Virus genome (UHGV): UHGV-0274280
DNA length: 15,876 bases
Strand: one strand, 5' to 3'
Source: a virus
The notes below the pieces were generated by a model. That model was given only the letters and a program-made list of their open reading frames with translations. It did no database searches and was not told where the DNA came from. The position numbers and the translations under genes were made by a program. Of this stretch, positions 1 through 12,880 are shown in pieces; positions within the stretch are counted from its first letter, which is position 1; each line of letters begins with the position of its first letter.

Positions 1-143
1 GTATATACAAACCCACAAACCAAATTTTCGTTCATAGCATATATTAAGTTTGTAAGATTGATTCCGTTATTTTCAATCGAACTGACGATTTTATGTTCAT
101 GCAAAGACATTTTATCAGATTTATTTTTAATTAAATTATTCAT
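1..143 (-). CDS. hypothetical protein, 5' part only (gene continues beyond window start)
   Basis: ATG at 143 with AAGGAG 6 nt upstream; frame stays open to the window edge (MNNLIKNKSDKMSLHEHKIVSSIENNGINLTNLIYAMNENLVCGFVY...). The ATG lies 8 nt inside the upstream recombinase gene, suggesting translational coupling. Not in the ORF track because under 60 aa within the window. AT-rich. Confidence 0.35.
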   Translation of the reverse strand, partial: MNNLIKNKSDKMSLHEHKIVSSIENNGINLTNLIYAMNENLVCGFVY

Positions 144-1338
144 CAAATTCTCCTTTGAATAGTTGCTCTTGTTGTTCAAGTGCAGTTTTTTTCGATAGCT
201 CATAAATATGCCTGCGATTATAAATCATTGAAGTTTCTGAACCCGGTCGCCATCCCATGAGATAAGAACGGATTTGTTGCTCTTTTTCATCGGATATGTC
301 CTGATTCTTGTCTATTGCTTTCGAAAACTCATAATTCCATGTATGTCTGAGTTTGTGACCTGTCAATCCCCCTAGAAGTGAGGAGGATTGACGAACAACA
401 CTCACCACTTTGTGATATGAAGAAAATGAAATAGGTTGCCCTTGAGTTTTTCCTTCCTTATAAGTAATAAACAGGAAATCATGTTTGTTAGAATTTTTTA
501 TGTTTCTTCGATCATTCAGAATATAATCTGAAATTTCAAACATGAGCTTTTTATCAGCAATTAATTTCCTCTCACAAGTTTTAACTAAAGGCTGATACAC
601 TCGCGGATCTGTTTTATCATTTGCTCTTCTTCTTATTGCAATTGTCGATTCTGCAAAATCTATATCACCCATTCGCAGATTCAAAAGTTCACCTGCTCTC
701 AGGCCAAAGCAGTGTAATAGCAGGAATATTAGATTGTTTCTTTTTTGCACTTTTTCTGAAAATGGATTTAATTTGCTACCCGGTGCAAGAATGCTAAACA
801 AAGAATCCAATTGTTCATTATTTAAACTTTTTTCTTTATCCATAGTATATTTATCATTATTTCTCGGTTTCTTTCGTTTTATGTTGTTAATGAAATCTAA
901 AATATATTTGAGAGTATCCTTCTGTCCTGTATGAGAAAGATGTATTTTGCACAGCCATTCCAGATAGTTAGCTATGGTTGTTATCCGAAAGTACTTAGTT
1001 GGTTTTTTGACATTTGAACTTCTAAAATTATCATTCTCGCCATCTCGAAAATTGAATGAAGTGAATTCGATCAAATCTTCAATTTCATGAGGAGCCAGAA
1101 ATATCCTTTTCTGAATTCTTTCATCAATATTGATATTTTTTCTCATAAAGAATCGATATAACAATGAAATGCTCCCAGCGATAACCTTCATTGTTGATAT
1201 AGACTCTGACCGATTCCTGACTTGTGTTGTTATATACAAGTTTGGATAATACAATGGCTCACCAGTATCTTTATTTACAACATGACAATATCTCTCACCA
1301 TTTTCGAACATAAAAGAATCCACACAAATACTGCACAT
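136..1338 (-). CDS. tyrosine-type site-specific recombinase / integrase-family protein (400 aa)
   Basis: Catalytic-domain signatures of the tyrosine recombinase family: box I-like LLLHCFGLRAGELLNLRMGDID (Arg), HKLRHTW (H-x-x-R), C-terminal SMIYNRRHIYE (candidate Tyr). ATG at 1338 with AGGAGG 5 nt upstream. Very AT-rich, unlike the other two integrases. Confidence 0.65.
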   Translation of the reverse strand: MCSICVDSFMFENGERYCHVVNKDTGEPLYYPNLYITTQVRNRSESISTMKVIAGSISLLYRFFMRKNINIDERIQKRIFLAPHEIEDLIEFTSFNFRDGENDNFRSSNVKKPTKYFRITTIANYLEWLCKIHLSHTGQKDTLKYILDFINNIKRKKPRNNDKYTMDKEKSLNNEQLDSLFSILAPGSKLNPFSEKVQKRNNLIFLLLHCFGLRAGELLNLRMGDIDFAESTIAIRRRANDKTDPRVYQPLVKTCERKLIADKKLMFEISDYILNDRRNIKNSNKHDFLFITYKEGKTQGQPISFSSYHKVVSVVRQSSSLLGGLTGHKLRHTWNYEFSKAIDKNQDISDEKEQQIRSYLMGWRPGSETSMIYNRRHIYELSKKTALEQQEQLFKGEFDE

Positions 1339-1446
1339 ATTTTCCTCCTAAACTTTACAAAAAGTATAATTCCAATATATTAATAATAAGCATTTCGTAG
1401 ATTTACAAATTTATTTGGATCGATTAAGATATTTATTTAAATTAAA

Positions 1447-1539
1447 ACAGTGAGATAGACGATTATTCTTGTCAAATTATCATCTGGTAGATCTAGTTAT
1501 TATTATGTACACCTAATACTTTGAAAACTATCTCACTGT
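1447..1539. repeat. perfect 12-bp inverted repeat pair (ACAGTGAGATAG at 1447-1458, CTATCTCACTGT at 1528-1539) flanking a 69-bp spacer
   Basis: Read directly from the sequence; lies in the 5' intergenic region of the recombinase gene. Confidence 0.7.
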
Positions 1540-1620
1540 CTTGCTAATAAACGGCAACCAAAATAATGTAAGTTATTTTGTAAGGTTTTAAGCCAAAATA
1601 TGGGGCCAAACTTTACATTT

Positions 1621-1935
1621 TTACAAAAGAGTTTTCAGCCCAATCTGATATCGAATTATCCGTTTCGATAAATTTCTAATTTCATCTGGGCATTTAATTA
1701 GCGAGAACCATGTTTCATACACATAAAACTGTTCGAAAATATTAAGCTCAGAGATCGAATCTAACGGTTCTCTTAGATTCCCCACTAAATACTGGCTTAA
1801 CCAGTAAACAATCTTTCTGTTAAATTCATTATCAGGTAAATCGTAAATCGCTCCGGGTTCGAAGATTTTACAGAAAAGTTCCTGGCCCAGATTACACATA
1901 TGGTTATCTTCACTCACAAATTCTTCGATATTCAT
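1621..1935 (-). CDS. hypothetical protein (104 aa from ATG at 1935; the ORF track starts 5 codons earlier at a TTG)
   Basis: ATG at 1935 with GGGAGG 6 nt upstream; only 20 nt after the alpA stop, so probably co-transcribed. AT-rich, no recognisable motif. Confidence 0.45.
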   Translation of the reverse strand: MNIEEFVSEDNHMCNLGQELFCKIFEPGAIYDLPDNEFNRKIVYWLSQYLVGNLREPLDSISELNIFEQFYVYETWFSLIKCPDEIRNLSKRIIRYQIGLKTLL

Positions 1936-1955
1936 AACATGCCTCCCCAAATTAA

Positions 1956-2171
1956 CTAAGCAACATTATTTCGACTTGTTTCGATAACAGACTGAATCCA
2001 GGCATCAATCTCACTTTCGACGAAAGCTACTGCACGAGTTCCAATTTTGACAGGGGCAGGAAACTTACCATCTTTGATCAGACGATAGACCCAGGCTTTG
2101 CCGAAACCAGTTCGTTTCAAGACTTCGGGTAAACGAATTAAGCTTTGATTGGTTGTATCGGTTGTATTCAT
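1956..2171 (-). CDS. alpA: AlpA-family phage transcriptional regulator / excisionase-like HTH protein (71 aa)
   Basis: LIRLPEVLKRTGFGKAWVYRLIKDGKFPAPVKIGTRAVAFVESEIDAWI follows the AlpA pattern (RLPEV..TG.....Y......FP.P.K.G.R.....E...W). Strong RBS GGAGGAGG 7 nt upstream of the ATG at 2171. Confidence 0.75.
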   Translation of the reverse strand: MNTTDTTNQSLIRLPEVLKRTGFGKAWVYRLIKDGKFPAPVKIGTRAVAFVESEIDAWIQSVIETSRNNVA

Positions 2172-2337
2172 TTGGCTACCTCCTCCGCTTCCGTTACGAA
2201 GATATTAGCCACACAGATTCGTATCTATGAAGGGAATGCTGATAACTGAAAAGTTAGATGAGGGAATAATGAAAGGAAATTCCGGGGAAGAAAAATATTT
2301 ACGCCCTCCCCTTGACAATTAACATGATGATTTACAA

Positions 2338-3147
2338 CTAGAAAGATCCGAGTTCCGAAATCGGTATGTTGCGGAGATGGCTGTTTTTGCTGATAAAATA
2401 TTCCAGACTACGGGTTGTTTCGCCATTCAATGACTTCTCTGCAACAGGCCTATCTGTATCTTTAATGTGATCTTCTCCTCTGATCTCATTTGTAAAGTCG
2501 GGATACAAGACACGAGACAAGACCATATTTGAGATTTTTACTTTTTTAAACTTTGCCCAAATCAATAAATCCATCATTGGGATAATATTGTAATCGACAA
2601 GTTTTCTTATTTTTGCAAGTCCAATTTTTTCTGTTTTCACTGGCTCAATTTCATATTCTTTTCTAAGATCTGGTAGCATCGTTTGTAAGGCTGTTATAAT
2701 TTCTTCATCGCTGGACATTCCTAAATCAAATGAAACATACATCTTGCTGCTATTTTGGTTTAGAAAAAAGTCCCTCATAGTTTTTGTAATTGGTTTCTTT
2801 TTCAACTCTTTTTTGAAATCGCCATTTTCTTCAAAAAAATCCATGCTAAACATTATTAACTTGTTCTCTAATTTTTTTATATCACCAAAGCTAACTTGCG
2901 CAACATGCCTTTGGCCCTTGCCAAAATGACCATGATTATTATCTTGTCTGCTTAAAATAGGATTACCTTCAAGGATAGACCTTAAATTTTGATTATCATC
3001 TTCCCATCCAAAATTTACACTGTCGAAAATCGCTTCTCTAAAGGCAAGCTCAGTATGCAGTTCTTTGATTGTAAGTGATTTTAACTGCTCATAGTTTTCG
3101 AGACTAAACCAGCTTTTTAATTCTTCATAAGGGCTTACTACTTTCAT
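2338..3147 (-). CDS. hypothetical protein, orphan cargo gene (269 aa from first ATG at 3147; 276 aa if the TTG at 3168 is used)
   Basis: Long ORF in AT-rich DNA between the P4-type integrase and alpA; GGAGG about 5 nt upstream of the ATG at 3147. No family recognised by eye. Confidence 0.5.
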   Translation of the reverse strand: MKVVSPYEELKSWFSLENYEQLKSLTIKELHTELAFREAIFDSVNFGWEDDNQNLRSILEGNPILSRQDNNHGHFGKGQRHVAQVSFGDIKKLENKLIMFSMDFFEENGDFKKELKKKPITKTMRDFFLNQNSSKMYVSFDLGMSSDEEIITALQTMLPDLRKEYEIEPVKTEKIGLAKIRKLVDYNIIPMMDLLIWAKFKKVKISNMVLSRVLYPDFTNEIRGEDHIKDTDRPVAEKSLNGETTRSLEYFISKNSHLRNIPISELGSF

Positions 3148-3204
3148 TAATCCCTCCACTGTATTCAAAGCTTGAATGAGTTAACACTGCTTATTTGAAT
3201 TAAT

Positions 3205-3232
3205 TCTCCCTTAACAAGATTGATAAGGGAGA
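3205..3232 (-). terminator. putative hairpin downstream of the P4-type integrase gene (8-bp stem TCTCCCTT / AAGGGAGA, 12-nt loop)
   Basis: Inverted repeat 27 bp past the int stop, followed on the minus strand by A/U-rich but not U-run sequence, so a weak intrinsic terminator at best. Confidence 0.3.
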
Positions 3233-3258
3233 GCGATTGATCATCTACTTATTCATAG

Positions 3259-4509
3259 TTAACTCTTTTTAAAATCAAATGGTGAAACTTGTCGTATTCT
3301 AAGGAGGTCAAGGTAATCGGCCCACCACTGCAACATAAGCTTTCTCTCATCAAGGTGCTCTGCTTTATGTATGTACGCAGCACGAACTGAGTTCCGCTCC
3401 TGATGGCTCATTTGCCGTTCAACAGCATCTTTCGACCACAAACCGGATTCAATTAAAGCACTACAAGCCATAGCTCTGAATCCATGTCCACAGACCTCCA
3501 CGGTTGTGTCATAGCCCATAGACCTCAAAGCCTTGTTTACCGTATTTTCACTCATGGGCTTTCTGAAATCATGGTCGCCAATGAACACGAGTTCATGGTC
3601 ACCGCTGATCTCTTTAATTTCCGTCAACACAGCCAATGCCTGACAACTCAAAGGAACAAGGTGTGGAGTTCGCATTTTCGAACCACGATGCGAATGTTTC
3701 ACTCCGGGTAATGGCTCTCGCTCTGCAGGAATAGTCCACATGGCATTGTCGAAATCTATCTCTGACCAACGAGCAAACCTGAGTTCACTCGAACGAATAA
3801 AAATGAGCAATGTAAGCTTTACGGCTAACTTCGTGAGCTTTCTACCTTTGAATATTTCAATTCGCTCTAGGAGTTCAGAGAAGCGATCAAACGGTAATGC
3901 CGGTCGGTGGGTTCTTTTTGCTACAGCAATAGCCCCAGACATTTCTTGGGCCGGATTATAGTCAATTAAGCCATTCTGGACGGCATATCGCAAAATTGCT
4001 GTGGTTCGTTGTTGTAGACGGGCTGCTACTTCTAACCGTCCAGAAGCTTCAACAACCTTGATCGGAACGAGTAGATCCTTGGTTTTAAGCTCGGCTATTT
4101 TTCTCTTTCCTATGAAAGAGAAAAGGTTATCTTCAAGGCTCTTTAAAACCCTCTCACTATGGGAATCTGACCATTTCCTTTTACAGGCAGTATGCCAGTC
4201 CCTTGCAACAGCTTCGAATGTCAGGGCTTCGCTTTGCTCGATTTTGTCTGCTTTTTTCTTTTCTGAGGGGTCGAGACCAAGCGATACTAATTTTTTGGCT
4301 TCATCCCGTTTCTTGCGGGCTTCACTAAGAGAGACCATTGGATAAACACCCAATGCTAAAACTTTCTGTTTGCCATCGAAACGGTATTGGAGTCGCCAGT
4401 ACTTCGAGCCGTTAGGATTGATCAGCAGGTGCATACCCTGCCCATCGGTGAGTTTGAAGGGTTTGTCGGAGGGCTTGGTAGTCCTAACTTTGATATCGGT
4501 GAGAGCCAT
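3259..4509 (-). CDS. int: P4 / CP4-57-type tyrosine integrase (416 aa)
   Basis: N-terminal arm-binding region (KPSDKPFKLTDGQGMHLLINPNGSKYWRLQYRFDGKQKVLALGVYPMVSLSEARKKRDEAKKLVSLGLDP) typical of P4-like integrases; catalytic region with HGFRAMACSAL and ...RAAYIH. ATG at 4509 with GGAGG 9 nt upstream. Confidence 0.85.
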   Translation of the reverse strand: MALTDIKVRTTKPSDKPFKLTDGQGMHLLINPNGSKYWRLQYRFDGKQKVLALGVYPMVSLSEARKKRDEAKKLVSLGLDPSEKKKADKIEQSEALTFEAVARDWHTACKRKWSDSHSERVLKSLEDNLFSFIGKRKIAELKTKDLLVPIKVVEASGRLEVAARLQQRTTAILRYAVQNGLIDYNPAQEMSGAIAVAKRTHRPALPFDRFSELLERIEIFKGRKLTKLAVKLTLLIFIRSSELRFARWSEIDFDNAMWTIPAEREPLPGVKHSHRGSKMRTPHLVPLSCQALAVLTEIKEISGDHELVFIGDHDFRKPMSENTVNKALRSMGYDTTVEVCGHGFRAMACSALIESGLWSKDAVERQMSHQERNSVRAAYIHKAEHLDERKLMLQWWADYLDLLRIRQVSPFDFKKS

Positions 4510-4601
4510 CAGTTGATACCTCCAGTGTTGGTACCAAAATCAATCGAACCGGGAATACCATCAGTTATACCATCATCAGTTGGTATATGTTCAAGGAATT
4601 G

Positions 4602-4681
4602 AGTAGACGTAGACAGACTAAGAAAAGCCAGAAACCTGCTTAACTTACTGTTTTTATGGACTAAAGTAGACGTTAGTAGAC
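4602..4681 (+). repeat. direct repeats AGTAGACGT (4602-4610, 4665-4673) and AGTAGAC (4675-4681); putative arm-type integrase binding sites
   Basis: Three copies of the 7-mer core, two spaced 10 bp apart, between the integrase start and the tRNA-end fragment, where att arm sites are expected. Confidence 0.4.
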
Positions 4682-4698
4682 TTGAAAAAAGCTTTGTA

Positions 4699-4729
4699 TG
4701 GTGCCGAAGGCCGGACTCGAACCGGCACG
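4699..4729 (-). other. 31-nt tRNA 3'-end fragment (T-arm, acceptor 3' strand, CCA); leuX / tRNA-Leu-like; putative att core or direct repeat
   Basis: Reverse complement reads CGTGCCGGTTCGAGTCCGGCCTTCGGCACCA: T-stem GCCGG/CCGGC, T-loop TTCGAGT, CCA end. It matches my recollection of the last 31 nt of E. coli leuX. The upstream sequence does not supply the complementary acceptor 5' strand (GCCGAAG), so this is not a complete tRNA gene. Confidence 0.6.
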
Positions 4730-4862
4730 GGTTTAGGCGGCTTAGCTTGCTTCAATAATCATCGTTAACTCGTTGAACTAGCTAGAATAAAGCTCATAAC
4801 CCCGGCACATTTCACAGACTGTTTAGCCATGAAAAAGCCCCGACAACATAACCGGGGTTTGT

Positions 4863-6071
4863 ATGAGTTTCAAGAGAGATCGTTATCTAGTTTTAGATCC
4901 CTGCGGGAATTACCTCGTGCGGATAGCTATCCCCAGCTATATGCGTCACCTGTTCCAAGGGAAACGCTACTTTATGAAAAGCACAGGGACACGAGACATA
5001 CGGCAAGCGCGATTGTTTCGCGATGCTATTGCTCTGGAATGGACTCGCTTACGGAATCTGCTAAAGCCACAAGGCGGCTCATCTGTAGACCAAATCATTG
5101 ATGAGCTACGCCGTGTCAGTGTGTACGCCAAGGAAGCCCCCGCATCGTTTGGTGCATCGATTCAGGCTTGCCCTTCCTTGCTAAAAATGCGTGATTTGTA
5201 CCTGCTTCAATACAGCGAGAAGCGAAAGCTAACCACGCTATCCAAGACCAATAAAGCCGTAGAGGTGCTGTTAACCCACCTGAAAAAGAAAGATGTTCAG
5301 TTGCGAGATATTAACCGAACCATAGTTACAGGCTGGTTAGATAAACTCAAAACTGAGCGAGCGCCCCAAACCATCCAGAACTATATCAGTGCACTGGCGC
5401 AGATATGGGATTTGGCACGCAATCGCTATCACGATGCGCCACAGGATAACCCTTGGCGTGGTCATGCACTCGAAGCAAAAAGCAGCAAGGTCAGCTATGA
5501 AGTCTTCGCACCGGGAGAGCTGGCAAAGGTCTATACCTTGCTTGATGACGAGATGAAGGCGGTAACGGCTATTGGTGCTTACAGCGGTATGCGGATCAAT
5601 GAAATATGTACGCTGCGTGAGAGCAGTATTAAAACCATCGAGGGCGTTTTGTGCTTTGAGATCACCGAGGGGAAGACCAAGAGCGCGGCACGAATCGTCC
5701 CAGTACACAGCAAGCTAATCCCCCTCGTGAAATCATTGCTCAAAACCACACATAGCGGTTTTCTGTTCTATCACGCGTCAATTACAGACCGGGCGGATGG
5801 GAAGCGCTCAACGTGGCATACGCAGCAGTTCACACGGGCAAAGCGTAAAGCTCTTGGCGAACTTGCCGCAGAGAGAAAAGTGTTTCACTCACTCCGCCAT
5901 GCGTTTGTGCAACAACTCGACCGTGCTCAAGTGCCAGAAGATAGGATCGCTCTGCTTGTAGGCCACGAACGAGGTAGCACTGAGAGTTTTAAGACATATT
6001 CAAAAAACGCAGCATCCCCTTTAGAGATGCGCCGGTATATTGAATTAATAGATTATGAATTAATTAAATGA
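4863..6071 (+). CDS. int: tyrosine-type phage integrase (402 aa), different family from the P4-type one
   Basis: N-terminal YLVRIAIPSYMRHLFQGKRYFMKSTGTRDIRQARL pattern common to phage/island integrases; C-terminal HSLRHAF (H-x-x-R) and LLVGHERGSTESFKTYSK (candidate Tyr). Transcribed away from the tRNA fragment. Confidence 0.8.
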   Translation: MSFKRDRYLVLDPCGNYLVRIAIPSYMRHLFQGKRYFMKSTGTRDIRQARLFRDAIALEWTRLRNLLKPQGGSSVDQIIDELRRVSVYAKEAPASFGASIQACPSLLKMRDLYLLQYSEKRKLTTLSKTNKAVEVLLTHLKKKDVQLRDINRTIVTGWLDKLKTERAPQTIQNYISALAQIWDLARNRYHDAPQDNPWRGHALEAKSSKVSYEVFAPGELAKVYTLLDDEMKAVTAIGAYSGMRINEICTLRESSIKTIEGVLCFEITEGKTKSAARIVPVHSKLIPLVKSLLKTTHSGFLFYHASITDRADGKRSTWHTQQFTRAKRKALGELAAERKVFHSLRHAFVQQLDRAQVPEDRIALLVGHERGSTESFKTYSKNAASPLEMRRYIELIDYELIK

Positions 6072-6084
6072 AATGCTTAGAGAA

Positions 6085-6106
6085 GAAGCCGAATAATATC
6101 GGCTTC
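6085..6106 (-). terminator. putative intrinsic terminator hairpin (GAAGCCGA-ATAATA-TCGGCTTC) between the convergent integrase and 157-aa genes
   Basis: 8-bp GC-rich stem with 6-nt loop directly after the stop of the minus-strand 157-aa gene and 14 nt after the integrase stop; U-rich stretch follows on the minus-strand transcript. Confidence 0.4.
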
Positions 6107-6580
6107 CTATGCAGCCGCTTCTGTTATACGTTCTCGATATTGTTTAGCTTCATCTATCCACATTTGTATTGCTTCTTGATTGTCCCAATTTGCATGGGCA
6201 TCATGATCAATAAAATCAACAATATAGTAGTGCCTTGTACCTGAGAATACAAAATACGAATATATCAAATAGCTGTTACTTTTACATTTCCATTGTACCA
6301 GTGGATGCCCATTGTCATCCTCCCAGACACTGTCTTCCTGCCTCACATGTAGATGTGTTAAACCTTCTCTTTTCTGATGATACGGCTTATCTTCATCAAC
6401 ATTGTCCCTATCTCTGCCAAAGAGCAGCGAAATAGATGCAAAAAGTTTTTGGATGGAATATCGGGGGCGGGAATGCTCTGCACTTAGTTGCTTATAGCGA
6501 CAGAACTCCTGATAAAAAGGAAGAAACTCGCCATCATTGGCGAGTTTTTCACAGCAATCAAACTCAATTGCAAGCGGCAT
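6107..6580 (-). CDS. hypothetical protein (157 aa), AT-rich moron gene
   Basis: ORF whose ATG at 6580 lies inside the 3' end of the upstream small ORF; AT-rich relative to the flanking operon; no family recognised. Confidence 0.5.
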   Translation of the reverse strand: MPLAIEFDCCEKLANDGEFLPFYQEFCRYKQLSAEHSRPRYSIQKLFASISLLFGRDRDNVDEDKPYHQKREGLTHLHVRQEDSVWEDDNGHPLVQWKCKSNSYLIYSYFVFSGTRHYYIVDFIDHDAHANWDNQEAIQMWIDEAKQYRERITEAAA

Positions 6581-6719
6581 GTACTTTACTGTATTCAGCT
6601 AAACGCTCATCAGTTTCTCTGGAACTTTTACGCGCTACAGTACGCGTTGTCTTGATAAGAGCATTCAGAGCATCCCTACTCATACCAGTCGATACGGGGC
6701 TGATTTTCGCCTTTGTCAT
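6564..6719 (-). CDS. hypothetical small protein (51 aa; start chosen at ATG 6719)
   Basis: ATG at 6719 with AGGAGG 7 nt upstream (aacAGGAGGtacaatATG); its 3' end overlaps the start of the 157-aa gene by 17 nt. The ORF track extends it to 6758 without RBS support. Confidence 0.4.
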   Translation of the reverse strand: MTKAKISPVSTGMSRDALNALIKTTRTVARKSSRETDERLAEYSKVHAACN

Positions 6720-6780
6720 ATTGTACCTCCTGTTTTTCGGTGATTGGCCTGCACACATTGTAGGCAGTTATTTTAAGTGG

Positions 6781-6809
6781 AGATTACGCAATCTACATCA
6801 ATCCGTCAA
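6781..6809 (-). promoter_or_regulatory. candidate sigma70-like promoter for the 51-aa/157-aa pair (-35 TTGACG, 17-bp spacer, -10 TAATCT)
   Basis: Hexamers read on the minus strand about 60 nt upstream of the ATG at 6719; the -10 matches consensus at only 3 of 6 positions. Confidence 0.25.
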
Positions 6810-6896
6810 GAATTGTTTTAAATACGAGCAAGTAAATAGGCAGCCACAGCAACATGTAACCTCATGAAAATAAAATAAATAGAGCCATGACCAATG

Positions 6897-7325
6897 TTAT
6901 GCTGGATAAATAATACCCAGCCCCTTGTAGTGGCGGCGGTAGGCTGGTAGCATGAAATTCATGCTACCGGGTGAGAGTCCACACACCCGCCCTACATAAT
7001 AGCCACCCTCAGCAGCATTAGCAGAGCGATGCACCACAGCACGCACGCGCCCGGTTCGGTGGCAGTGATCCAGCACGGCAGACGCAAGGCGCAGCGGCTT
7101 ACCTGTCACCGCACAGCGTCGGTATTGATAATTCCACAGGAAGACACGGACAGCGGCCACATCAGCGCGGCGCAACTCCAGCCGCCCGGAACCATTCAAC
7201 AGGAAGCGATAAACATCTTCGAATGCAGCAGCGTTTGTAATCCGTTCCGCCAGTGGCATATTGCCAAGGTGTTCCAGATAGCCCCGCATAGCTTTTCTTA
7301 ATAGCTGGTCTGTCCGTGTAACCAT
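6897..7325 (-). CDS. endonuclease VII-like (T4 gp49-type Holliday-junction resolvase family) protein, divergent (142 aa)
   Basis: CAVTGKPL...LDHCHRTGRVRAVVHRSANAAEG resembles the Endo VII core (C..C...LDHDH..G.VRGLLC..CN.AEG) but the second Cys pair is replaced by His/Ala. Confidence 0.55.
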   Translation of the reverse strand: MVTRTDQLLRKAMRGYLEHLGNMPLAERITNAAAFEDVYRFLLNGSGRLELRRADVAAVRVFLWNYQYRRCAVTGKPLRLASAVLDHCHRTGRVRAVVHRSANAAEGGYYVGRVCGLSPGSMNFMLPAYRRHYKGLGIIYPA

Positions 7326-7597
7326 GATTCAAAGTCTCCATTGTCAGATGAAGCCCGCTTGCAGGCTTCATATTCTTCGCACTGGCGCTGGCGTACCAAA
7401 GCATAAAGCTCATCGGCCAACGCATTAACGCGTTCGTCACTGATACCATTGCGGCGCATTAGCCCCAGCAGCTTACGAAACTCAGCTTCAAGCTCAGGCT
7501 CTCCGGTATCTATTACCCACTGTTTCAGGTAAGCAAGTGTGCCAGTCATTGGCGGCGGCTCGATGTACCGCCACCTTAATTTAATTGTGGTTATCAT
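7298..7597 (-). CDS. hypothetical protein (99 aa from ATG at 7597)
   Basis: ATG at 7597 with GAGAGGA about 9 nt upstream; overlaps the neighbouring genes at both ends. The ORF track's longer start at 7645 lacks an RBS. Confidence 0.4.
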   Translation of the reverse strand: MITTIKLRWRYIEPPPMTGTLAYLKQWVIDTGEPELEAEFRKLLGLMRRNGISDERVNALADELYALVRQRQCEEYEACKRASSDNGDFESWLHGQTSY

Positions 7598-8006
7598 CTT
7601 CTTTATCCTCTCTGTAAGCCGGGTGCATTGCCCGGTATTGCTCAATGGTCAAACCCTCGCTGGCCGCTGTAAGCCGTTCCTTTTGCTTACCTGCCAATCG
7701 CAAGGCGCTATCTCTCCAGCAAAGCAGAAAGAAGACGGTCAGCACCTGCTTACTCAAGCCATCCAGAAGATCGCCAAGCCCTTGATCCAGCAGACAGACA
7801 CGCCATGCAGCGGCGTGCTCAGTCATAGCACCGACTATCGGGACAGGTGCGCCAAGCATCGTCGCAAGCTGACTCATAACACTATTAGCATCGCCCGGAT
7901 GCAGCCGGGGAATAGACATGCGGCCAGCCTGCGCCAACAGTTCAGCGTACCGCTGGCGGCGTGGGTCATCATCTGCCAGCGCTCTAATCGGCTTTTCATC
8001 AGCCAT
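7581..8006 (-). CDS. hypothetical protein (141 aa)
   Basis: ATG at 8006 with GGAGG 9 nt upstream, 18 nt after the HNH gene stop; no motif recognised. Confidence 0.5.
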   Translation of the reverse strand: MADEKPIRALADDDPRRQRYAELLAQAGRMSIPRLHPGDANSVMSQLATMLGAPVPIVGAMTEHAAAWRVCLLDQGLGDLLDGLSKQVLTVFFLLCWRDSALRLAGKQKERLTAASEGLTIEQYRAMHPAYREDKEDDNHN

Positions 8007-8024
8007 TAATGGAACCTCCGAGGA

Positions 8025-8534
8025 TTAGGCAGCCTGCAATAAATCGGCTGGCGTTGAGGGATGGCATCTGGCTTTAGCTTTTAGATAGGCAGCACGCGCC
8101 GCCACTTCGGTAGTAAATAAGCCAAGGTGACGGAGTACACCATCAACGCGTATGTAAGCCTCCCATTTTCTACAGCCCTTATTCCAGCTATACCCCCTTG
8201 CCTTGCGTCGGTTCTGGTCGTTTTCCCGCTGCGTAACCAAGCGCAGATTGCATAGGCGATTGTCGTCACGGATACCGTTGATGTGATCGATCTGCTTACC
8301 ATGAGGAATAGCGCCATGCGCAAGAATCCACGCCACGCGATGGGCTTTTAGCTGGTACTGCTTGCCATCAAGTCGCAGGGCAACTTGACGATAGCCATCA
8401 GCTCGCCGGGTGGAGTCAGCATAGGAGCCAGCCTTAACCCGGCGTCGGTTAGCTTTATGGTGCAGGCGGCCTGTCACCGGGTCATACAGGAAAAGGGAAC
8501 ACAGCAGCTCAGGGGCGTAAGCATCATTAACCAT
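8025..8534 (-). CDS. HNH endonuclease with AP2-like DNA-binding domain (169 aa)
   Basis: HRVAWILAHGAIPHGKQIDHINGIRDDNRLCNLRLVTQRENDQN is a typical HNH_3-type motif, followed by GYSWNKGCRKWEAYIRVDGVLRHLGLFTTEVAARAAY (AP2-like). GGAGG 9 nt upstream of the ATG. Confidence 0.75.
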   Translation of the reverse strand: MVNDAYAPELLCSLFLYDPVTGRLHHKANRRRVKAGSYADSTRRADGYRQVALRLDGKQYQLKAHRVAWILAHGAIPHGKQIDHINGIRDDNRLCNLRLVTQRENDQNRRKARGYSWNKGCRKWEAYIRVDGVLRHLGLFTTEVAARAAYLKAKARCHPSTPADLLQAA

Positions 8535-8550
8535 GACTCAGCCCCTCCAG

Positions 8551-9546
8551 TTATGCAGCTTGTCGGAAATTGATAACGCAGTCAGGACGACGCAGCCCAA
8601 CGTTGAACAGGCGATATGAGTCCATCACCATTGTCATTTCGCGTTCATCATCCCACTGGCGATTGATGACGCTCTGCGCTTCGACCGTCAGCAGCACAGA
8701 GGAAGGTTTAAACAGCGTCGCCCTCGTCATCGCTTCCTCTGCGGTAACGTCATAATCAGCGCCCAGTTCATGCCCGGTAATGACTTCCTGCGGGTAACTG
8801 TTCAGCTCAATGACTCGCACCCCAGCGACATAGCCAACGCGACGCCATGCGTAATCGTTGCCACTATCCCGGCTGTAACGGACGTTCATCAGCTTCTTAT
8901 GTTCCATCAGGATGCTGAACCATGCAGGGTCAATGAGAAGCACCAGCTCGGCCACCGGAATATCTTTCTCAGTGAGGAAGCGATTAGCAGCCGCTTTGAC
9001 GGCGTGAACCAATTCGTTTGCGGCGTCCTCTTCGCTCCCCGCTGTCAGGTCGAGCGAGACAACGTTATTCGTAAGCGGGTTAAACGTTGGTTGCAGTGTC
9101 GGCGGCGGTACAAAGTCAGTCGCTTTGATTAACTGGATGGTGTGCGCTTCGTCGTAGAACTTAGCGTGCGCAGTGCCGATATTGCGGCTCAGCTCTGCGC
9201 GAAATGTGGGTGCTGTCCAATCGTCCTGATAGTCAATCGGGACGCGGATATAACTCAGCGTATCCACAGAGATAACCAACTTGTCCGACTTAACGGCGGT
9301 AGGCTCCAGCGATTGCCCTGCGGTTCTGCCCTTCACCTCAAGATCACCACTCAGGCGATCAATGCGGTATTGGTTGCTGCCTTTCAGCGGCCTGTATGTA
9401 GACAGCCCCTCGGCCAGAAATACGGATTTGGACTCTAAACGGGTCTGGACATCCCGGTCATAAGCCTCGATGTGAATATCATTGTCGGATTCCACCCCGC
9501 CATAATGTGGGCGAAACAGATCGGGACTGTACGAAGTATCAGCCAT
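8551..9546 (-). CDS. major capsid protein homolog, T7 gp10-like (331 aa from ATG at 9546)
   Basis: By-eye block alignment to T7 gp10A from memory: KLVISVDTLSYIRVPIDYQDD...RAELSRNIGTAHAKFYDEA vs KVITIDGLLTADVLIYDIED...RSEYTSQLGESLAMAADGA, and FLTEKDIPVAELVLLIDPAWFSIL vs LTKNYVPAADRVFYCDPDSYSAIL. Similar length (T7 gp10A is 345 aa). AGGAG 8 nt upstream of ATG 9546; the ORF track start at 9591 has no RBS. Confidence 0.6.
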   Translation of the reverse strand: MADTSYSPDLFRPHYGGVESDNDIHIEAYDRDVQTRLESKSVFLAEGLSTYRPLKGSNQYRIDRLSGDLEVKGRTAGQSLEPTAVKSDKLVISVDTLSYIRVPIDYQDDWTAPTFRAELSRNIGTAHAKFYDEAHTIQLIKATDFVPPPTLQPTFNPLTNNVVSLDLTAGSEEDAANELVHAVKAAANRFLTEKDIPVAELVLLIDPAWFSILMEHKKLMNVRYSRDSGNDYAWRRVGYVAGVRVIELNSYPQEVITGHELGADYDVTAEEAMTRATLFKPSSVLLTVEAQSVINRQWDDEREMTMVMDSYRLFNVGLRRPDCVINFRQAA

Positions 9547-9744
9547 AAACAAAACTCCTACGTAGGTTGATGAAGCCCGCGCCATCGTCATGGCACAGAC
9601 GTGCGGAATCCTCCCGCCGAGGCAGGATTCAGAACGGTATCGATTAAAGGGATGAGGTGCCCCGAAATGGGCGTTTTGAGGCCAGAGCTGGCGCGGTTCT
9701 CAGGGGTTAGTGCGCGTGAAGTAAGGCGAACGTATTACCTTGCA

Positions 9745-10158
9745 TTAGTGCGCACTCATACGCGCCATGTTCAACACCTTCCGCACAGAGGTTTCAGACA
9801 CGCCAACCTTGCTTGCAATGTAACGATTCTTCTGGCCTTTTGCAGAGCGAACGATAATGTCAGCGCGTATCGCCTCAGTGATTACCTTGCGGGGTCTGGC
9901 TCGATTCTTCTCGTGCCGTTCACGTTCGCGCATCCGCTCGGCCATCTTCGGCGGCAGCACAGGGGAAAGCCCACGGCTAACGCCAGATGTGCGGGTGCCG
10001 GATGTGGCAGACCGTGCAACGATATAAACCGCTTCGTCTGGATTGAAAACGTGCGGCACACGCTCAGGGTAAACATGATCACATCTACCCAGCGGCAAGG
10101 CGAAATCCGGGCGCACGTCAGCGACACGCTCCACAGCATGGAAATTACAGGTACTCAT
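9745..10158 (-). CDS. HTH DNA-binding protein (137 aa); possible small terminase subunit or regulator
   Basis: C-terminal helix-turn-helix-like segment RYIASKVGVSETSVRKVL preceded by a basic stretch; GAGG 6 nt upstream of the ATG. Function not assignable from sequence alone. Confidence 0.45.
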   Translation of the reverse strand: MSTCNFHAVERVADVRPDFALPLGRCDHVYPERVPHVFNPDEAVYIVARSATSGTRTSGVSRGLSPVLPPKMAERMRERERHEKNRARPRKVITEAIRADIIVRSAKGQKNRYIASKVGVSETSVRKVLNMARMSAH

Positions 10159-10297
10159 TACGAACCTCGGTTAATTAAAAACAGGCTTTCAGATGCCGCG
10201 CAGAATGCGGCTTGCGGGGACTCATGCGCATAGATTGGTGTGGTAGTACCGGGTCGGTGCGCACTCGGTCTTGCAGGGCGCATTCCACAGTTGGGCG

Positions 10298-10978
10298 TTA
10301 GCGACCAGCACGTTTGCCAGCGGAGCGCTGCGCAACCAGAGCGCGGTATTGTTCATCGTACTGGCGATGGCCGGGGCCATACCCTGATTGCTGCGCCCAC
10401 TGCGAAAGCTGGTCATACGCTGCTATAAACTCAGCATGTGACATTCCGACAGGTTGCGCGGCAGTCTGGCCGTTCGGGACGTAACCGGTAATGGAACCGC
10501 CAGCCATACGCTCTTGCAGATACTGAACCGCACGCGACATCTGCGCGGGATCGCCAGACATGACCATCCGTTCAAGGGTTGATTGCGTCCCGGCGTCGAG
10601 CGTGCCAGCGTACTGCAACATCGCGTCAACTGTACCCTGACCTAGCTGGCTTTCGACAGACTGGTGAAACTGCCCCATCAGCCCATGAAGTTCAGGAGTC
10701 AACTCAACAGTGGTGCCATCCTGTAATTGCAGTGTGTCGCCCACTTGCGCCCCAGCGCTGTCAGCGTTCTGGTCTTGCTGATTTGCGATATTGCCATTAT
10801 TCCATTGTCCGCCATCATTGCCGTTAACGGGTTGGGTACGGAGGAAATCAGCATCAGCAGGCGCAGAGCTAAAGCGGGATGCTCCATTGTCAACTCCAAC
10901 AGGTGCAGCCATGTATGGCGATTGCTGCGATGCAGCATCAGCACCGGAAAGGTACGGATTAACATTCTGGTCAGACAT
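10298..10978 (-). CDS. acidic Q/N/G-rich low-complexity protein (226 aa); possible scaffolding or other assembly protein
   Basis: AGGAGA 7 nt upstream of the ATG; sits two genes upstream of the capsid gene. Composition is rich in Q, N, G, D and A. Confidence 0.45.
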   Translation of the reverse strand: MSDQNVNPYLSGADAASQQSPYMAAPVGVDNGASRFSSAPADADFLRTQPVNGNDGGQWNNGNIANQQDQNADSAGAQVGDTLQLQDGTTVELTPELHGLMGQFHQSVESQLGQGTVDAMLQYAGTLDAGTQSTLERMVMSGDPAQMSRAVQYLQERMAGGSITGYVPNGQTAAQPVGMSHAEFIAAYDQLSQWAQQSGYGPGHRQYDEQYRALVAQRSAGKRAGR

Positions 10979-10981
10979 AAA

Positions 10982-11221
10982 TTACTCTCCTGATAATGCT
11001 CTAAAGTCGTGTACCTGCGCTAACAACAGCATATGAACAGGCACACAACGTTCCGGCAGTTTGCGCACACCGTGATACGCTTTACCCATATCCCGACGAT
11101 CAACCTGATAGGCGTGGGCGAGGTCTGCCTGACTCACCTCAAGCGATTCAGAAATCAGCTTTAATTGTGCAGCCCAGTCTGTATTCTTGCGGGGCGGCAG
11201 CAATACGATAGTTTTGCTCAT
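10982..11221 (-). CDS. hypothetical protein (79 aa)
   Basis: ATG with GAGGA 6 nt upstream; its stop is 4 nt before the next gene's ATG. Confidence 0.4.
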   Translation of the reverse strand: MSKTIVLLPPRKNTDWAAQLKLISESLEVSQADLAHAYQVDRRDMGKAYHGVRKLPERCVPVHMLLLAQVHDFRALSGE

Positions 11222-11233
11222 GGTAATTCCTCG

Positions 11234-11470
11234 TTAAAGTAATCCACGTTTACGAAGCCAACGACGCTCACCAACGGAGCCGCGCGGGCGTTGTTTCGGA
11301 TTCTGGTTAAGTGTTTGGCTGGGGTCAGTTCGACCTTTCCCGGTCAGGTTCTGCGTCAGCACATCCCAACCCCGTGATTCAATCGGAGCGTATCCTTCGC
11401 GTTGTTCGTCAAGGTTCACGTAGAGATCAGGGTTAACGGCGGGGTGCAGCGGTTCGTTCTCTGCCATCAT
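11234..11470 (-). CDS. hypothetical protein (78 aa)
   Basis: Start ATG overlaps the stop of the upstream gene (ATGA), indicating translational coupling. Confidence 0.4.
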   Translation of the reverse strand: MMAENEPLHPAVNPDLYVNLDEQREGYAPIESRGWDVLTQNLTGKGRTDPSQTLNQNPKQRPRGSVGERRWLRKRGLL

Positions 11471-12030
11471 TCAGCCTCGCTGAATTTGGAGTTAACAGAC
11501 TCCAGAGTATCCGGGTACGACCAACGATTTCTCAGGCAGCGTTGCACATGCGCGACGACCTCAACAGGGACGCCCAGCTTCCCGGCGATCTCCGCAGCAG
11601 GCCAACCGAAGCGCTCTAACTTGTGGATTTCATCTAAATCAGTAGGCACTAACTTGCGCACTACTTTCGGCTTCGCTGGCTTCACCTTCAAGGGTTTCTG
11701 TACCGGGTGCGTGTGGGCGTTGCTAAAGCGGGAATGGGCGATAGCCAGCACCGTCTCAGGGCGAATCAGCATATCGCGGGCAATCATAAACTCTGTATCG
11801 CGGTGCAGCTTGCCGGGCTTATAGCGGCTGCGGATGGCGTTGTACTCCGCCAGATTAATATCAGCATCGTCTTTCCAATGTTCGGCCAAGTCATCGACAT
11901 AGGCGCCACGGATTACTGCATCAATATCGGTCAGGGTATGACCTGTCTCCGCTGCAATCTCTTCATTGTTCTTTAGGTGCTTATGAGCCAGCGCGTTAAT
12001 GCGCTGGATATCGGTAATACTCAAAGTCAT
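11467..12030 (-). CDS. putative DNA-binding protein (187 aa) with C-terminal sigma-70 region-4-like HTH
   Basis: DLDEIHKLERFGWPAAEIAGKLGVPVEVVAHVQRCL resembles a region-4/LuxR-type HTH; GGAG 9 nt upstream; ATGA overlap with the upstream ORF. Confidence 0.5.
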   Translation of the reverse strand: MTLSITDIQRINALAHKHLKNNEEIAAETGHTLTDIDAVIRGAYVDDLAEHWKDDADINLAEYNAIRSRYKPGKLHRDTEFMIARDMLIRPETVLAIAHSRFSNAHTHPVQKPLKVKPAKPKVVRKLVPTDLDEIHKLERFGWPAAEIAGKLGVPVEVVAHVQRCLRNRWSYPDTLESVNSKFSEAE

Positions 12031-12203
12031 AAATTAAACTCCGAATCAAATTTGATCTGGTCAGTAACCAACGTGTGAATCAGCGCAAGGCTTGACGCGG
12101 TGTGTGTGCCCGACTTGCGGGCGTTGTCGTACATGAAGCGGACTACACGTTGATATTTCTCCGGCAGCGTGGCGAACCATTGCCGGAACTGTTCAGGGGT
12201 CAT
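12027..12203 (-). CDS. hypothetical small protein (58 aa), absent from the ORF track
   Basis: MTPEQFRQWFATLPEKYQRVVRFMYDNARKSGTHTASSLALIHTLVTDQIKFDSEFNL; its start overlaps the upstream stop (caATGAcc) and its stop overlaps the downstream start (ttATGAct), closing an apparent 170-bp gap in the operon. Confidence 0.35.
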   Translation of the reverse strand: MTPEQFRQWFATLPEKYQRVVRFMYDNARKSGTHTASSLALIHTLVTDQIKFDSEFNL

Positions 12204-12409
12204 TGGTCGTCATCCTCCGGGAACACGTTGTTAAAGGTTGTATCAGGCGAGTCGGCGGCGTTCTGCTTGAGGAAGTTCACGCAGGATGACAACTCGGCAG
12301 CAGCCATGCGTGACTCTCCCGCCTCGTCCTCCTTAAGCCTGCGCGTCAACGCACCCAGCAGCAGGGTTTTTAGTTCCCATGCTCCGGCTTCAAATTCAGA
12401 TTTCGTCAT
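12200..12409 (-). CDS. hypothetical protein (69 aa)
   Basis: ATGA overlap with the upstream 145-aa gene; acidic C-terminus. Confidence 0.4.
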   Translation of the reverse strand: MTKSEFEAGAWELKTLLLGALTRRLKEDEAGESRMAAAELSSCVNFLKQNAADSPDTTFNNVFPEDDDQ

Positions 12410-12843
12410 TGGTGGTTATCTCCAACTGGTAACAGGCCTAGCGCACGGATGTGCTGAATCACTTCTTGATGCACGGGCTTCGGCAGAAACAAACGGCGGG
12501 CAATGGCGGCGTAAACTTCATCAGGAGTCTTGCGTACCGGATGCACCCGGCCATTGAAAACCCGGTCGGACAACCGGACGGCTTTCCAGCGACGCGAGCC
12601 ATCCGGCCTTTTCATGCGGTTCAGTACAGCGGCCAGACACTCCCACGGCTCGCAATCATTCAGCAGGCAATATCGCTCCAGCGGTGTAAATACCTCGCGA
12701 ATGATGGCCTCACGATTAAGGGTCTTGCGATGAGGTTCGGCCAGTTCATCCCAGTTGTACCCATTCAGGGCGAAAGCTAGTTGTGCGGTGATGAGCGCAT
12801 CCGCACGCGCAGCACGACGCTGCGCATGTTCGGTAACAGGCAT
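12406..12843 (-). CDS. hypothetical protein (145 aa)
   Basis: ATG at 12843 with GGAG 8 nt upstream, 37 nt after the helicase stop; no motif recognised. Confidence 0.5.
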   Translation of the reverse strand: MPVTEHAQRRAARADALITAQLAFALNGYNWDELAEPHRKTLNREAIIREVFTPLERYCLLNDCEPWECLAAVLNRMKRPDGSRRWKAVRLSDRVFNGRVHPVRKTPDEVYAAIARRLFLPKPVHQEVIQHIRALGLLPVGDNHQ

Positions 12844-12880
12844 ATGATTAACTCCAGAGAATCAGGGAGAGCCTTTCGAC

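What the first reader, a model, noticed from the sequence alone, without database searches (positions are those of the whole stretch)
1..1338. AT-rich tyrosine recombinase translationally coupled to a downstream gene
A third, compositionally distinct recombinase carries full catalytic signatures, and its last codons overlap an RBS-preceded start of a downstream ORF that leaves the window. Simple integrases are usually monocistronic at their 3' end, so this points to a multi-gene module such as a phase-variation switch or a recombinase-associated accessory system.
Basis: partly seen in the sequence, partly recalled or inferred. Interest (0 to 1): 0.5.

Follow-up and report, generated by a model that had tools for sequence, protein, structure and literature searches.

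The report
First gene of a GInt recombinase operon
The AT-rich recombinase is ginA, the first gene of the known four-gene ginABCD operon that moves "GInt" genomic islands, and the overlapping downstream gene is ginB, so this is a member of a published class of mobile element, not a new switch.

Summary
Window 136-1338 (-) encodes a 400-aa tyrosine recombinase at 33% G+C. Its six catalytic residues (R214, K253, H328, R331, W363, Y373) are kept in all 74 relatives examined. Its stop overlaps by 8 nt (ATGAATAA) an AGGAG-preceded ATG at 143, and that ORF runs off the window.

Contigs 99.98% identical to window 1-4729 show the downstream gene is a second tyrosine recombinase of 434 aa. A 624-aa recombinase-fold protein follows with a 4-nt overlap, then a 128-aa protein.

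This is the ginABCD operon of GInt islands (Bardaji 2017). E. coli proteins 98.4% identical to the third and fourth are listed as ginC and ginD orthologs by Idola 2023.

The four-gene order holds in all 73 complete operons found across several phyla. ginA/ginB overlap in 57 of them.

Nothing supports phase variation, because the orientation is fixed in every locus.

The element's far end is unresolved. The kind is already known.

Two side observations may be new:
- GinC keeps a full catalytic residue set, contrary to the literature.
- In Enterobacterales the operon sits in a fixed slot of P4-integrase/AlpA/relaxase islands.

The parts
136..1338 (-). ginA: a 400-aa tyrosine recombinase and first gene of the ginABCD operon. 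Its Shine-Dalgarno AGGAGG lies at 1349-1344, 5 nt before the ATG at 1338.
   Evidence: The exact protein occurs on contigs in 61 blocks of the public collection. In all 6 places shown it is followed by the same three genes.
1..143 (-). The first 47 codons of ginB, a 434-aa second tyrosine recombinase. The ATG at 143-141 overlaps the ginA stop (138-136) by 8 nt. AGGAG lies at 154-150.
   Evidence: These residues are identical to the N-terminus of the 434-aa gene in L007. GinB matches PF00589 at E 5e-11. R188, K220, R330, H353 and Y362 are kept in 73-74 of 74 operons.
1339..1496 (-). The 5' untranslated end of the gin module: 158 bp at 23% G+C. It is inferred to hold the ginA promoter and the element-side half of the attachment site.
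   Evidence: Similarity to gin-less islands stops exactly at 1496|1497. The promoter scan found nothing above chance.
1497..1511 (.). The junction core TTATTATTATGTACA, the first bases of the flank shared with islands that lack gin. It is a candidate attL crossover region.
   Evidence: Three different left-hand sequences join at this point: the gin module, a relaxase fragment in Salmonella (L002), and unrelated DNA (L003, L006). A direct copy matching 13 of 14 searched bases (14 of 15 with the adjoining T) lies 9.17 kb away in the window's own lineage, at L007 18999-19012. No such copy is found in L001 or L004.
1444..1542 (.). A 15-nt inverted repeat, with arms at 1444-1458 and 1528-1542, that straddles the junction. 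One arm lies in the gin module and one in the flank.
   Evidence: 93% complementary. In L001 the motif occurs only at this junction. Its function was not tested.
1621..2171 (-). Flank: a small conserved gene (1621-1950) and alpA (1956-2171, Pfam Phage_AlpA). This pair lies directly upstream of gin operons throughout an Enterobacterales clade.
2338..4509 (-). The host island core: a DUF6387 protein (2338-3168) and a P4-type integrase (3259-4509). This island sits at tRNA-Leu (leuX) and carries the gin module.
4699..4729 (-). The last 31 nt of tRNA-Leu, which is the att core shared by the P4-integrase island and the neighbouring capsid-encoding element.
   Evidence: ARAGORN finds no complete tRNA in the window.

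Best explanation
Window 136-1338 (-) is ginA and window 1-143 (-) is the start of ginB. They are the first two genes of a ginABCD operon, which is the defining recombination module of GInt mobile genomic islands.

The full operon, read from contigs 99.98% identical to the window, encodes:
- GinA, 400 aa, a tyrosine recombinase.
- GinB, 434 aa, a tyrosine recombinase, overlapping ginA by 8 nt.
- GinC, 624 aa, with a tyrosine-recombinase fold, overlapping ginB by 4 nt.
- GinD, 128 aa, starting 14 nt after ginC.

The overlaps couple translation, so the proteins would be made together from one mRNA. This suits proteins that act as one recombination complex.

By homology to the Pseudomonas elements, where each of the four genes is required, the complex would cut and rejoin DNA at short imperfect repeats at the element's ends. 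That would excise the element as a circle and integrate it site-specifically.

Here the module sits inside a P4-integrase island at leuX. One end lies at window 1496|1497, 158 bp upstream of ginA.

Shown here: gene content, order, overlaps, catalytic residues, folds, family membership and the sharp junction. Inferred: recombination activity, the need for all four proteins in this lineage, and the position of the other end.
For: - Downstream genes. The exact GinA protein is always followed by the 434-, 624- and 128-aa genes. L007, L008 and L009 match window 1-4729 with a single mismatch. GinB's first 47 residues equal the window ORF.
- Published catalogue. The third and fourth proteins of E. 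coli locus L001 (WP_021518351.1 and WP_001062149.1) are 98.4% identical to those of the window's lineage. Both appear in Additional file 10 of Idola 2023, the list of ginC and ginD orthologs. They are absent from that paper's other files, including the tfp/srap list.
- Operon conservation. All 73 complete loci have the order A-B-C-D. They include Pseudomonas viridiflava and span Gamma-, Beta- and Alphaproteobacteria, Verrucomicrobiota, Myxococcota and Acidobacteria. Start-stop overlaps occur for A/B in 57 loci and for B/C in 64.
- Catalysis and fold. GinA residues are invariant and its model matches tyrosine recombinases. The GinC model's best matches are almost all tyrosine recombinases, led by XerH at probability 0.99 and E 1e-3. 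hhalign gives GinC vs GinB E 6.7e-4 and GinA vs GinB E 3.4e-4.
- Junction. A sharp, recurrent breakpoint lies at 1496|1497 with three different partners.
- Description of GInts. The published layout is the operon at the 5' end, then variable cargo, often restriction-modification systems, with all four genes essential. This fits the variable DNA beyond the relaxase block: an Eco57I-type methylase in L007, a reverse transcriptase and TIR/caspase genes in L001, and hxsABCD in L004.
Against: - Only ginA and 47 codons of ginB lie in the window. The rest is read from near-identical contigs.
- No empty target site and no circular junction were found. Two chimeric empty-site queries found no E. coli genome with the flanks joined.
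- The far end is not defined. The only candidate repeat occurs in one lineage. A search allowing two mismatches found two or more sites in 3 of 100 shuffles.
- Islands without gin still carry the relaxase block (L006). The 'cargo' next to ginD may therefore belong to the host island rather than to a GInt.
- Published text says GinC lacks the catalytic residues, whereas here they are conserved. The description of the family and this operon differ on that point.
- Identity to Pseudomonas GinC is only about 34-35%.
Confidence: 0.88

Rival explanations
1. The gin operon is not the engine of a separate GInt. It is a fixed module of a larger integrative mobilizable island made of a P4-type integrase, DUF6387, AlpA, ginABCD, a 141-aa gene, a MobA/VirD2 relaxase and a MobC-like gene. 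In this reading it acts at an internal site (window 1496|1497) to swap or capture DNA, or to move the MOB block between islands. The P4 integrase handles chromosomal integration at leuX.
For: - The same neighbourhood surrounds gin operons whose GinC identity ranges from 100% down to about 33%. This covers Escherichia, Citrobacter, Kluyvera, Rahnella, Buttiauxella, Pectobacterium, Pantoea, Xenorhabdus and Yersinia, about 30 of 80 loci.
- Islands lacking gin keep both flanks, with 2.5 kb of unrelated DNA in the slot (L003, L006).
- A divergent ginABCD (27-46% aa identity) fills the same slot in E. coli E32. The breakpoint there lies 3 nt after the ginD stop.
- L001 (leuX) and L004 (ypjA region) share the block from the MobC-like gene through alpA at 93% identity.
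Against: - Distantly related GInts are known to share one insertion site, the 3' end of ssb. Conserved neighbours can therefore reflect target specificity.
- No product of an internal recombination was observed.
- Gin operons in other clades lack these neighbours.
- This reading concerns how the operon is used, and it does not dispute that it is a gin operon.
Confidence: 0.2
2. It is a strand-biased circularizing integrative element (SE: intA-tfp-intB-srap), or a Tn554-type transposon (tnpA-tnpB-tnpC).
For: The size pattern is an ordinary recombinase, a ~430-aa protein, a large ~620-aa protein and a small ~130-aa protein. This resembles SE, and with one gene fewer Tn554. GinD is reported to resemble TnpC.
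Against: - The L001 proteins appear only in the ginC/ginD list and not in the tfp/srap list.
- SE and GInt proteins form separate clusters.
- The second protein here keeps R, K, R, H and Y, whereas Tfp lacks them.
- Tn554 has three genes and is described from Staphylococcus and Enterococcus.
Confidence: 0.03
3. It is a phase-variation or DNA-inversion switch, with the recombinases flipping a nearby segment.
For: Several recombinase genes sit close together. A 15-nt inverted repeat straddles the region upstream of ginA.
Against: - The orientation of ginABCD relative to both flanks is identical in every locus examined.
- The inverted-repeat arms are only 69 nt apart and enclose no gene and no better-than-chance promoter.
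- NCBIfam invertase models score 24-25 bits against cut-offs of 221-222.
- Homologs have been shown experimentally to excise and integrate islands.
Confidence: 0.02
4. It is an inactive relic, with gin genes carried passively by the leuX island.
For: No empty site or second insertion site independent of the alpA flank was found. There is no copy on plasmids.
Against: - All four ORFs are intact in all 6 places shown for the exact GinA protein and in 73 complete related operons.
- Catalytic residues are invariant and the gene overlaps are preserved.
- The junction has been used by at least three different joints.
Confidence: 0.1

Closest known systems
GInt (Genomic Island with three Integrases), ginABCD operon; Bardaji et al. 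2017 (PMC5385486); catalogued in Gamma- and Betaproteobacteria, including 7.5% of Escherichia replicons, by Idola et al. 2023 (PMC10214605)
   Same: - Four co-directional, overlapping genes: two ordinary tyrosine recombinases, a large recombinase-related protein and a small fourth protein.
- The operon sits at one end of variable DNA that often carries restriction-modification or other defence genes.
- There is a sharp junction just upstream of ginA.
- Near-identical E. coli GinC and GinD are in the published ortholog list.
   Different: - GinC keeps a complete R-K-H-R-W-Y pattern in 72-74 of 74 operons. Idola 2023 calls GinC catalytically dead, and Bardaji 2017 says its first Arg is missing.
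- The operon is nested in a P4-integrase/AlpA island and lies next to a MobA/VirD2 relaxase, whereas GInts are described as non-mobilizable.
- The second end and the flanking repeats are not established here.
Strand-biased circularizing integrative elements (SE: intA-tfp-intB-srap), Vibrio alfacsensis SE-6283 and SE-6945
   Same: A four-gene tyrosine-recombinase operon at one end of a small island in Gammaproteobacteria. The third protein is large and the fourth small.
   Different: The protein families are separate by BLAST and MCL clustering. The second protein here has catalytic residues. The proteins are absent from the tfp/srap list.
Tn554 (tnpA, tnpB, tnpC) of Staphylococcus
   Same: One ordinary plus one ~630-aa tyrosine recombinase and a ~125-aa third protein. 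Insertion is site-specific.
   Different: Tn554 has three genes, not four, and is found in Firmicutes hosts. Similarity of GinD to TnpC was not tested here.
RIT (recombinase in trio) elements
   Same: Three adjacent, often overlapping tyrosine recombinase genes.
   Different: RITs have no fourth small gene. The third protein here is much larger, with a conserved C-terminal Cys/His motif. No long terminal inverted repeats were seen.

Membership tests
GInt (ginABCD) | Four co-directional, tightly packed genes in the order ginA-ginB-ginC-ginD | tested here: met
   Only ginA and 47 codons of ginB are in the window. Contigs with 1 mismatch over window 1-4729 show genes of 400, 434, 624 and 128 aa, with 8-nt and 4-nt overlaps and a 14-nt gap. 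The same order holds in 73 of 73 complete related loci.
GInt (ginABCD) | GinA and GinB are tyrosine recombinases with the catalytic motif | tested here: met
   PF00589 hits: GinA E 3.6e-13, GinB E 5e-11. GinA R214, K253, H328, R331, W363 and Y373, and GinB R188, K220, R330, H353 and Y362, are kept in 73-74 of 74 operons. GinA fold match to XerA: E 1.6e-7.
GInt (ginABCD) | GinC is a large protein related to tyrosine recombinases, often annotated as hypothetical | tested here: met
   GinC has no Pfam or PDB sequence hit. The model (pLDDT 77) has tyrosine recombinases as nearly all of its best matches, led by XerH at probability 0.99 and E 1e-3. hhalign to GinB gives E 6.7e-4. Unlike the published description, its catalytic-type residues are conserved.
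GInt (ginABCD) | GinD is a small protein with a C-terminal helix-loop-helix and weak similarity to Tn554 TnpC | tested here: inconclusive
   A 128-aa ORF is present, and homologs were detected after ginC in 73 loci. A 98.4%-identical protein is listed as a GinD ortholog. It has no Pfam or NCBIfam hit. The helix-loop-helix and the TnpC similarity were not tested.
GInt (ginABCD) | Orthology to the experimentally studied Pseudomonas operons | tested here: met
   WP_021518351.1 and WP_001062149.1 are in Additional file 10 of PMC10214605. That list came from PSI-BLAST starting from P. stutzeri DSM 4166 GinC and GinD, with a synteny filter. In my own scan, Pseudomonas viridiflava and two other Pseudomonas genomes carry the same four-gene operon at 34-35% GinC identity.
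GInt (ginABCD) | The operon lies at the 5' end of an island bordered by imperfect direct repeats of 10-17 nt, with site-specific insertion | tested here: inconclusive
   A sharp junction lies 158 bp upstream of ginA and recurs in dozens of E. coli genomes. A candidate direct repeat matching 14 of 15 bases lies 9.17 kb away, but only in the window's lineage. No empty site was found.
GInt (ginABCD) | Excision as a circle and integration, each requiring all four genes | not testable with these tools
   This is experimental. It has been shown only for Pseudomonas elements.
SE (intA-tfp-intB-srap) | Second protein (Tfp) lacks the catalytic residues, and the proteins cluster with Tfp and Srap | tested here: not met
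   The second protein keeps R188, K220, R330, H353 and Y362. The L001 proteins are absent from the tfp/srap list and present in the ginC/ginD list.
Tn554 family | A three-gene tnpA-tnpB-tnpC module | tested here: not met
   Four genes are present. No sequence comparison with TnpA, TnpB or TnpC was run.
RIT elements | Exactly three recombinases of similar size, with no fourth gene | tested here: not met
   The third protein is 624 aa, and a conserved fourth gene follows it in 73 of 73 loci.
Gamma-mobile-trio recombinase GmtY (NCBIfam NF040693) | Score at or above the curated cut-off of 340 bits | tested here: not met
   GinA scores 37 bits. GinB scores 315 bits against NF041502 'integrase_1', whose cut-off is 350, so it also falls below threshold.
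Tyrosine-type DNA invertase / phase-variation switch | An invertible segment bounded by inverted repeats, found in both orientations | tested here: not met
   One orientation is seen in all loci. Invertase models score 24-25 bits against cut-offs of 221-222.

The most novel reading that the evidence does not exclude
In Enterobacterales the gin operon may not be a free-standing GInt. It may instead be a permanent fourth-to-sixth recombinase set of P4-integrase/AlpA/relaxase islands, working at one internal site (window 1496|1497) to exchange DNA modules. All three Gin recombinases, including GinC, would be catalytically competent. That would make it a mobilizable island with two separate recombination systems, and it would overturn the view of GinC as a dead scaffold.
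Probability: 0.2. Interest if true: 0.5.

Novelty: already known. Interest (0 to 1): 0.25.

Why it matters
For genome annotation, these genes are currently labelled 'tyrosine-type recombinase/integrase', 'DNA-binding protein' and 'hypothetical protein'. They can instead be named ginA to ginD, and the surrounding DNA can be recognised as a GInt-type element nested in the leuX island. The variable DNA beside the conserved relaxase block carries defence-type genes: an Eco57I-type methylase in the window's lineage, and a reverse transcriptase with TIR and caspase genes in a relative.

The finding itself adds no new kind of system. Two side results could interest people who work on these elements:
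- GinC retains a conserved catalytic residue set in 72-74 of 74 operons.
- An Enterobacterales clade of gin operons always lies between alpA and a MOB relaxase block. This questions the published view that GInts are non-mobilizable.

Tried and rejected
- Direct sequence searches of GinC found no real relative. I tried Pfam, NCBIfam, PDB by phmmer, and a 27-sequence profile. Only structure prediction with Foldseek and hhalign against GinB linked it to recombinases. A first hhalign with small alignments was not significant (E 0.16).
- Two chimeric 'empty site' queries found no E. coli genome with the flanks joined. One joined the DNA just past ginD to the alpA-side flank. The other joined the alpA-side flank to the DNA beyond the candidate repeat.
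- I searched for the junction core, or for the inverted-repeat motif, at a second end. Only the window's own lineage has a second core copy. L001 and L004 have none, and the inverted-repeat motif occurs only at the junction.
- Comparing the ends of shared similarity among islands gave no sharp far boundary. Similarity fades between L007 18032 and 18399, near the MobC-like gene.
- The plasmid collection has no match to window 1-1620.
- The promoter and terminator scan of 1-2400 gave nothing above chance.
- Rfam found no family in the window.
- PDB phmmer with GinA gave spurious WD40 hits alongside weak XerA and XerC hits.
- A literature hit for 'GInt' in a 2026 preprint turned out to be an author name, Gintz.

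Full report
**1. The observation**

The window holds a 400-aa ORF at 136..1338 on the minus strand. It matches the Pfam phage-integrase domain at E 3.6e-13. Its AlphaFold model (pLDDT 82) aligns over about 360 columns with XerA, XerH, Tn1549 integrase and Cre, with best E 1.6e-7.

The Pfam match stops at residue 340, before the catalytic Tyr. I therefore checked the active site on alignments. R214, K253, H328, R331, W363 and Y373 are invariant in 18 relatives at 43-88% identity. They are kept in 73-74 of 74 distinct relatives from many phyla.

The gene is 33.4% G+C. The other two integrases in the window are 45-49%, and 6897-15876 is 54%.

From the sequence itself:
- The stop TAA is at 138-136.
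- An ATG at 143-141 in another frame gives the overlap ATGAATAA.
- AGGAG lies 6 nt upstream of that ATG.
- The new ORF stays open for 47 codons to the window edge.

**2. What lies beyond the window**

The exact GinA protein is on record on contigs in 61 blocks of the public collection. Three of them (L007, L008, L009) match window 1-4729 with one mismatch. In all six places shown, the downstream genes are the same:
- A 434-aa gene whose first 47 residues equal the window ORF. It matches PF00589 at E 5e-11.
- A 624-aa gene overlapping it by 4 nt.
- A 128-aa gene.
- Then a 141-aa gene, small genes, a MobA/VirD2 relaxase and a MobC-like gene.

E. coli complete genomes show the same layout at 91-96% DNA identity, next to alpA, a DUF6387 gene, a P4-type integrase and tRNA-Leu.

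**3. Identification**

This four-gene layout is the ginABCD operon that defines GInts. In GInts the operon sits at the 5' end, followed by variable cargo and a short 3' end. Each of the four genes is needed for excision and integration in Pseudomonas.

The third and fourth proteins of E. coli locus L001 (WP_021518351.1 and WP_001062149.1) appear in Additional file 10 of Idola et al. 2023. [quoted passage not shown] The two proteins are absent from the paper's other files, including the tfp/srap list. They are 98.4% identical to the proteins of the window's lineage.

I also scanned one genome per species with a GinC alignment. This returned 80 loci from Gamma-, Beta- and Alphaproteobacteria, Verrucomicrobiota, Myxococcota and Acidobacteria, including three Pseudomonas genomes. 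All 73 complete loci carry the same four genes in the same order.

With a nearest-start heuristic:
- ginA/ginB overlap in 57 of 73 loci and lie within 20 nt in 15 more.
- ginB/ginC overlap in 64 of 73.

**4. The three recombinases**

GinB keeps R188, K220, R330, H353 and Y362 in 73-74 of 74 operons. The position of the second His is variable.

GinC has no sequence hit in Pfam, NCBIfam or the PDB. Its model (pLDDT 77) has tyrosine recombinases as nearly all of its best matches, led by XerH at probability 0.99, although E is only 1e-3 and the TM-scores are low.

hhalign on the 74-sequence alignments gives GinC vs GinB E 6.7e-4. It aligns:
- R229 with R188.
- H458/R461 with R327/R330.
- Y493 with the GinB Tyr.
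- A shared C-terminal Cys-rich motif.

R229, K261, H458, R461, W481 and Y493 are kept in 72-74 of 74 GinC sequences, Pseudomonas included. This disagrees with Idola 2023, which says GinC lacks the RHRY motif and the catalytic tyrosine. It goes beyond Bardaji 2017, which says only the first Arg is missing.

The GinC segment 469-527, which holds W481 and Y493, is poorly modelled. The residue assignment therefore rests on alignment and not on geometry.

**5. Where the module ends**

Similarity between gin-bearing islands and gin-less islands breaks exactly at window 1496|1497. The shared flank begins TTATTATTATGTACACC.

Three different sequences are joined to that flank:
- The gin module.
- A relaxase gene fragment in Salmonella houtenae (L002).
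- Unrelated DNA in E. coli NT1F10 and Z1323CEC0010.

That pattern is what a recombination site would leave. A 15-nt inverted repeat straddles the junction.

The other end is unresolved.
- E. coli E32 carries a divergent ginABCD (27-46% aa identity) in the same slot. Its breakpoint lies 3 nt after the ginD stop. Published work also places the start of the cargo at that point.
- In the window's lineage, a direct copy of the junction core matching 14 of 15 bases lies 9.17 kb away, beyond the MobC-like gene.
- No such copy exists in L001 or L004.
- Two synthetic empty-site queries found nothing.

**6. Context**

In about 30 of the 80 loci the operon lies between alpA (or a similar HTH gene) and the 141-aa/relaxase/MobC block. 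These are all Enterobacterales, with GinC identity from 100% to about 33%. A P4-type integrase and a DUF6387 gene often lie upstream. Other clades lack these neighbours.

Two readings fit:
- Conserved target specificity, with a conserved mobilisation cargo.
- A gin module that is a fixed part of these islands.

Gin-less islands that keep the relaxase block favour the second reading. The known shared target of distant GInts favours the first. I could not separate them.

**7. Rivals**

- SE elements are excluded by the published lists and clustering, and by the catalytic residues in the second protein.
- Tn554 and RIT are excluded by gene number.
- A phase-variation switch has no support. The orientation is constant in every locus, and invertase models score far below threshold.
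- A passive relic is unlikely, given the intact ORFs and invariant residues.

**8. Verdict**

The finding is real and correctly described, but it has a published explanation. It is ginA with the start of ginB, from a GInt-type ginABCD operon that is already catalogued in E. coli.

Interest is low for the finding as stated. The GinC residue pattern and the fixed alpA/relaxase context are modest leads for specialists.

Noticed in passing
L007 12497-14371 (GinC, just outside the window); alignment of 74 operons: GinC keeps R229, K261, H458, R461, W481 and Y493 in 72-74 of 74 operons, Pseudomonas included. These residues align with the catalytic residues of GinB, together with an invariant C-terminal Cys/His motif (C546, H548, C555). 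Published text calls GinC a recombinase-fold protein without the catalytic motif or tyrosine.
   Followed up: partly
Window 1621-4509, and L013-L091 flanks: In an Enterobacterales clade the gin operon always lies between alpA (plus a small gene) and a block made of a 141-aa gene, small genes, a MobA/VirD2 relaxase and a MobC-like gene. A DUF6387 gene and a P4-type integrase often lie upstream. GinC identity in this clade runs from 100% down to about 33%. GInts are described as non-mobilizable, yet these sit next to a relaxase.
   Followed up: partly
Window 4699-4729: These are the last 31 nt of tRNA-Leu (leuX), with no complete tRNA in the window. It is the shared att core between the P4-integrase island on the left and a second element on the right, so two islands are integrated in tandem at leuX.
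   Followed up: partly
Window 4730-15876: The second element is 100% identical to E. coli EC09. Its genes are: a DUF6538-type integrase (4863-6071, +), a YafO-like toxin (6107-6580, -), an endonuclease VII-like gene (6897-7325, -), an HNH endonuclease (8025-8534, -), a major head protein of phrog_267 (8551-9591, -) and a DEAD/DEAH helicase (12881-14725, -). It looks like a small capsid-encoding phage satellite.
   Followed up: partly
Window 15062-15268: About 200 bp here is 88-96% identical to mostly unannotated stretches of ~42-kb Escherichia, Enterobacter, Kosakonia and Pantoea phages. It may be a packaging site that the satellite-like element shares with helper phages.
   Followed up: no
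L002 11252-12001 (Salmonella enterica subsp. houtenae): A fragment homologous to the MobC-like and relaxase region is joined exactly at the equivalent of window 1496|1497. The gin operon and the rest of the relaxase block are missing. This is consistent with a deletion ending at the recombination site.
   Followed up: partly
L005 10256-15409 (E. coli E32): A second, divergent ginABCD (399, 513, 668 and 132 aa; 27-46% identity to the window's lineage) occupies the same slot in an 84%-identical backbone. An extra small gene lies upstream of its ginA.
   Followed up: partly
Window 1499-1527 (-): A weak promoter-like site pointing toward ginA spans the junction. Its -35 element (TTTTCA) lies in the flank and its -10 element (AATAAT) in the core. 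The number of such sites in the region is no higher than chance.
   Followed up: no
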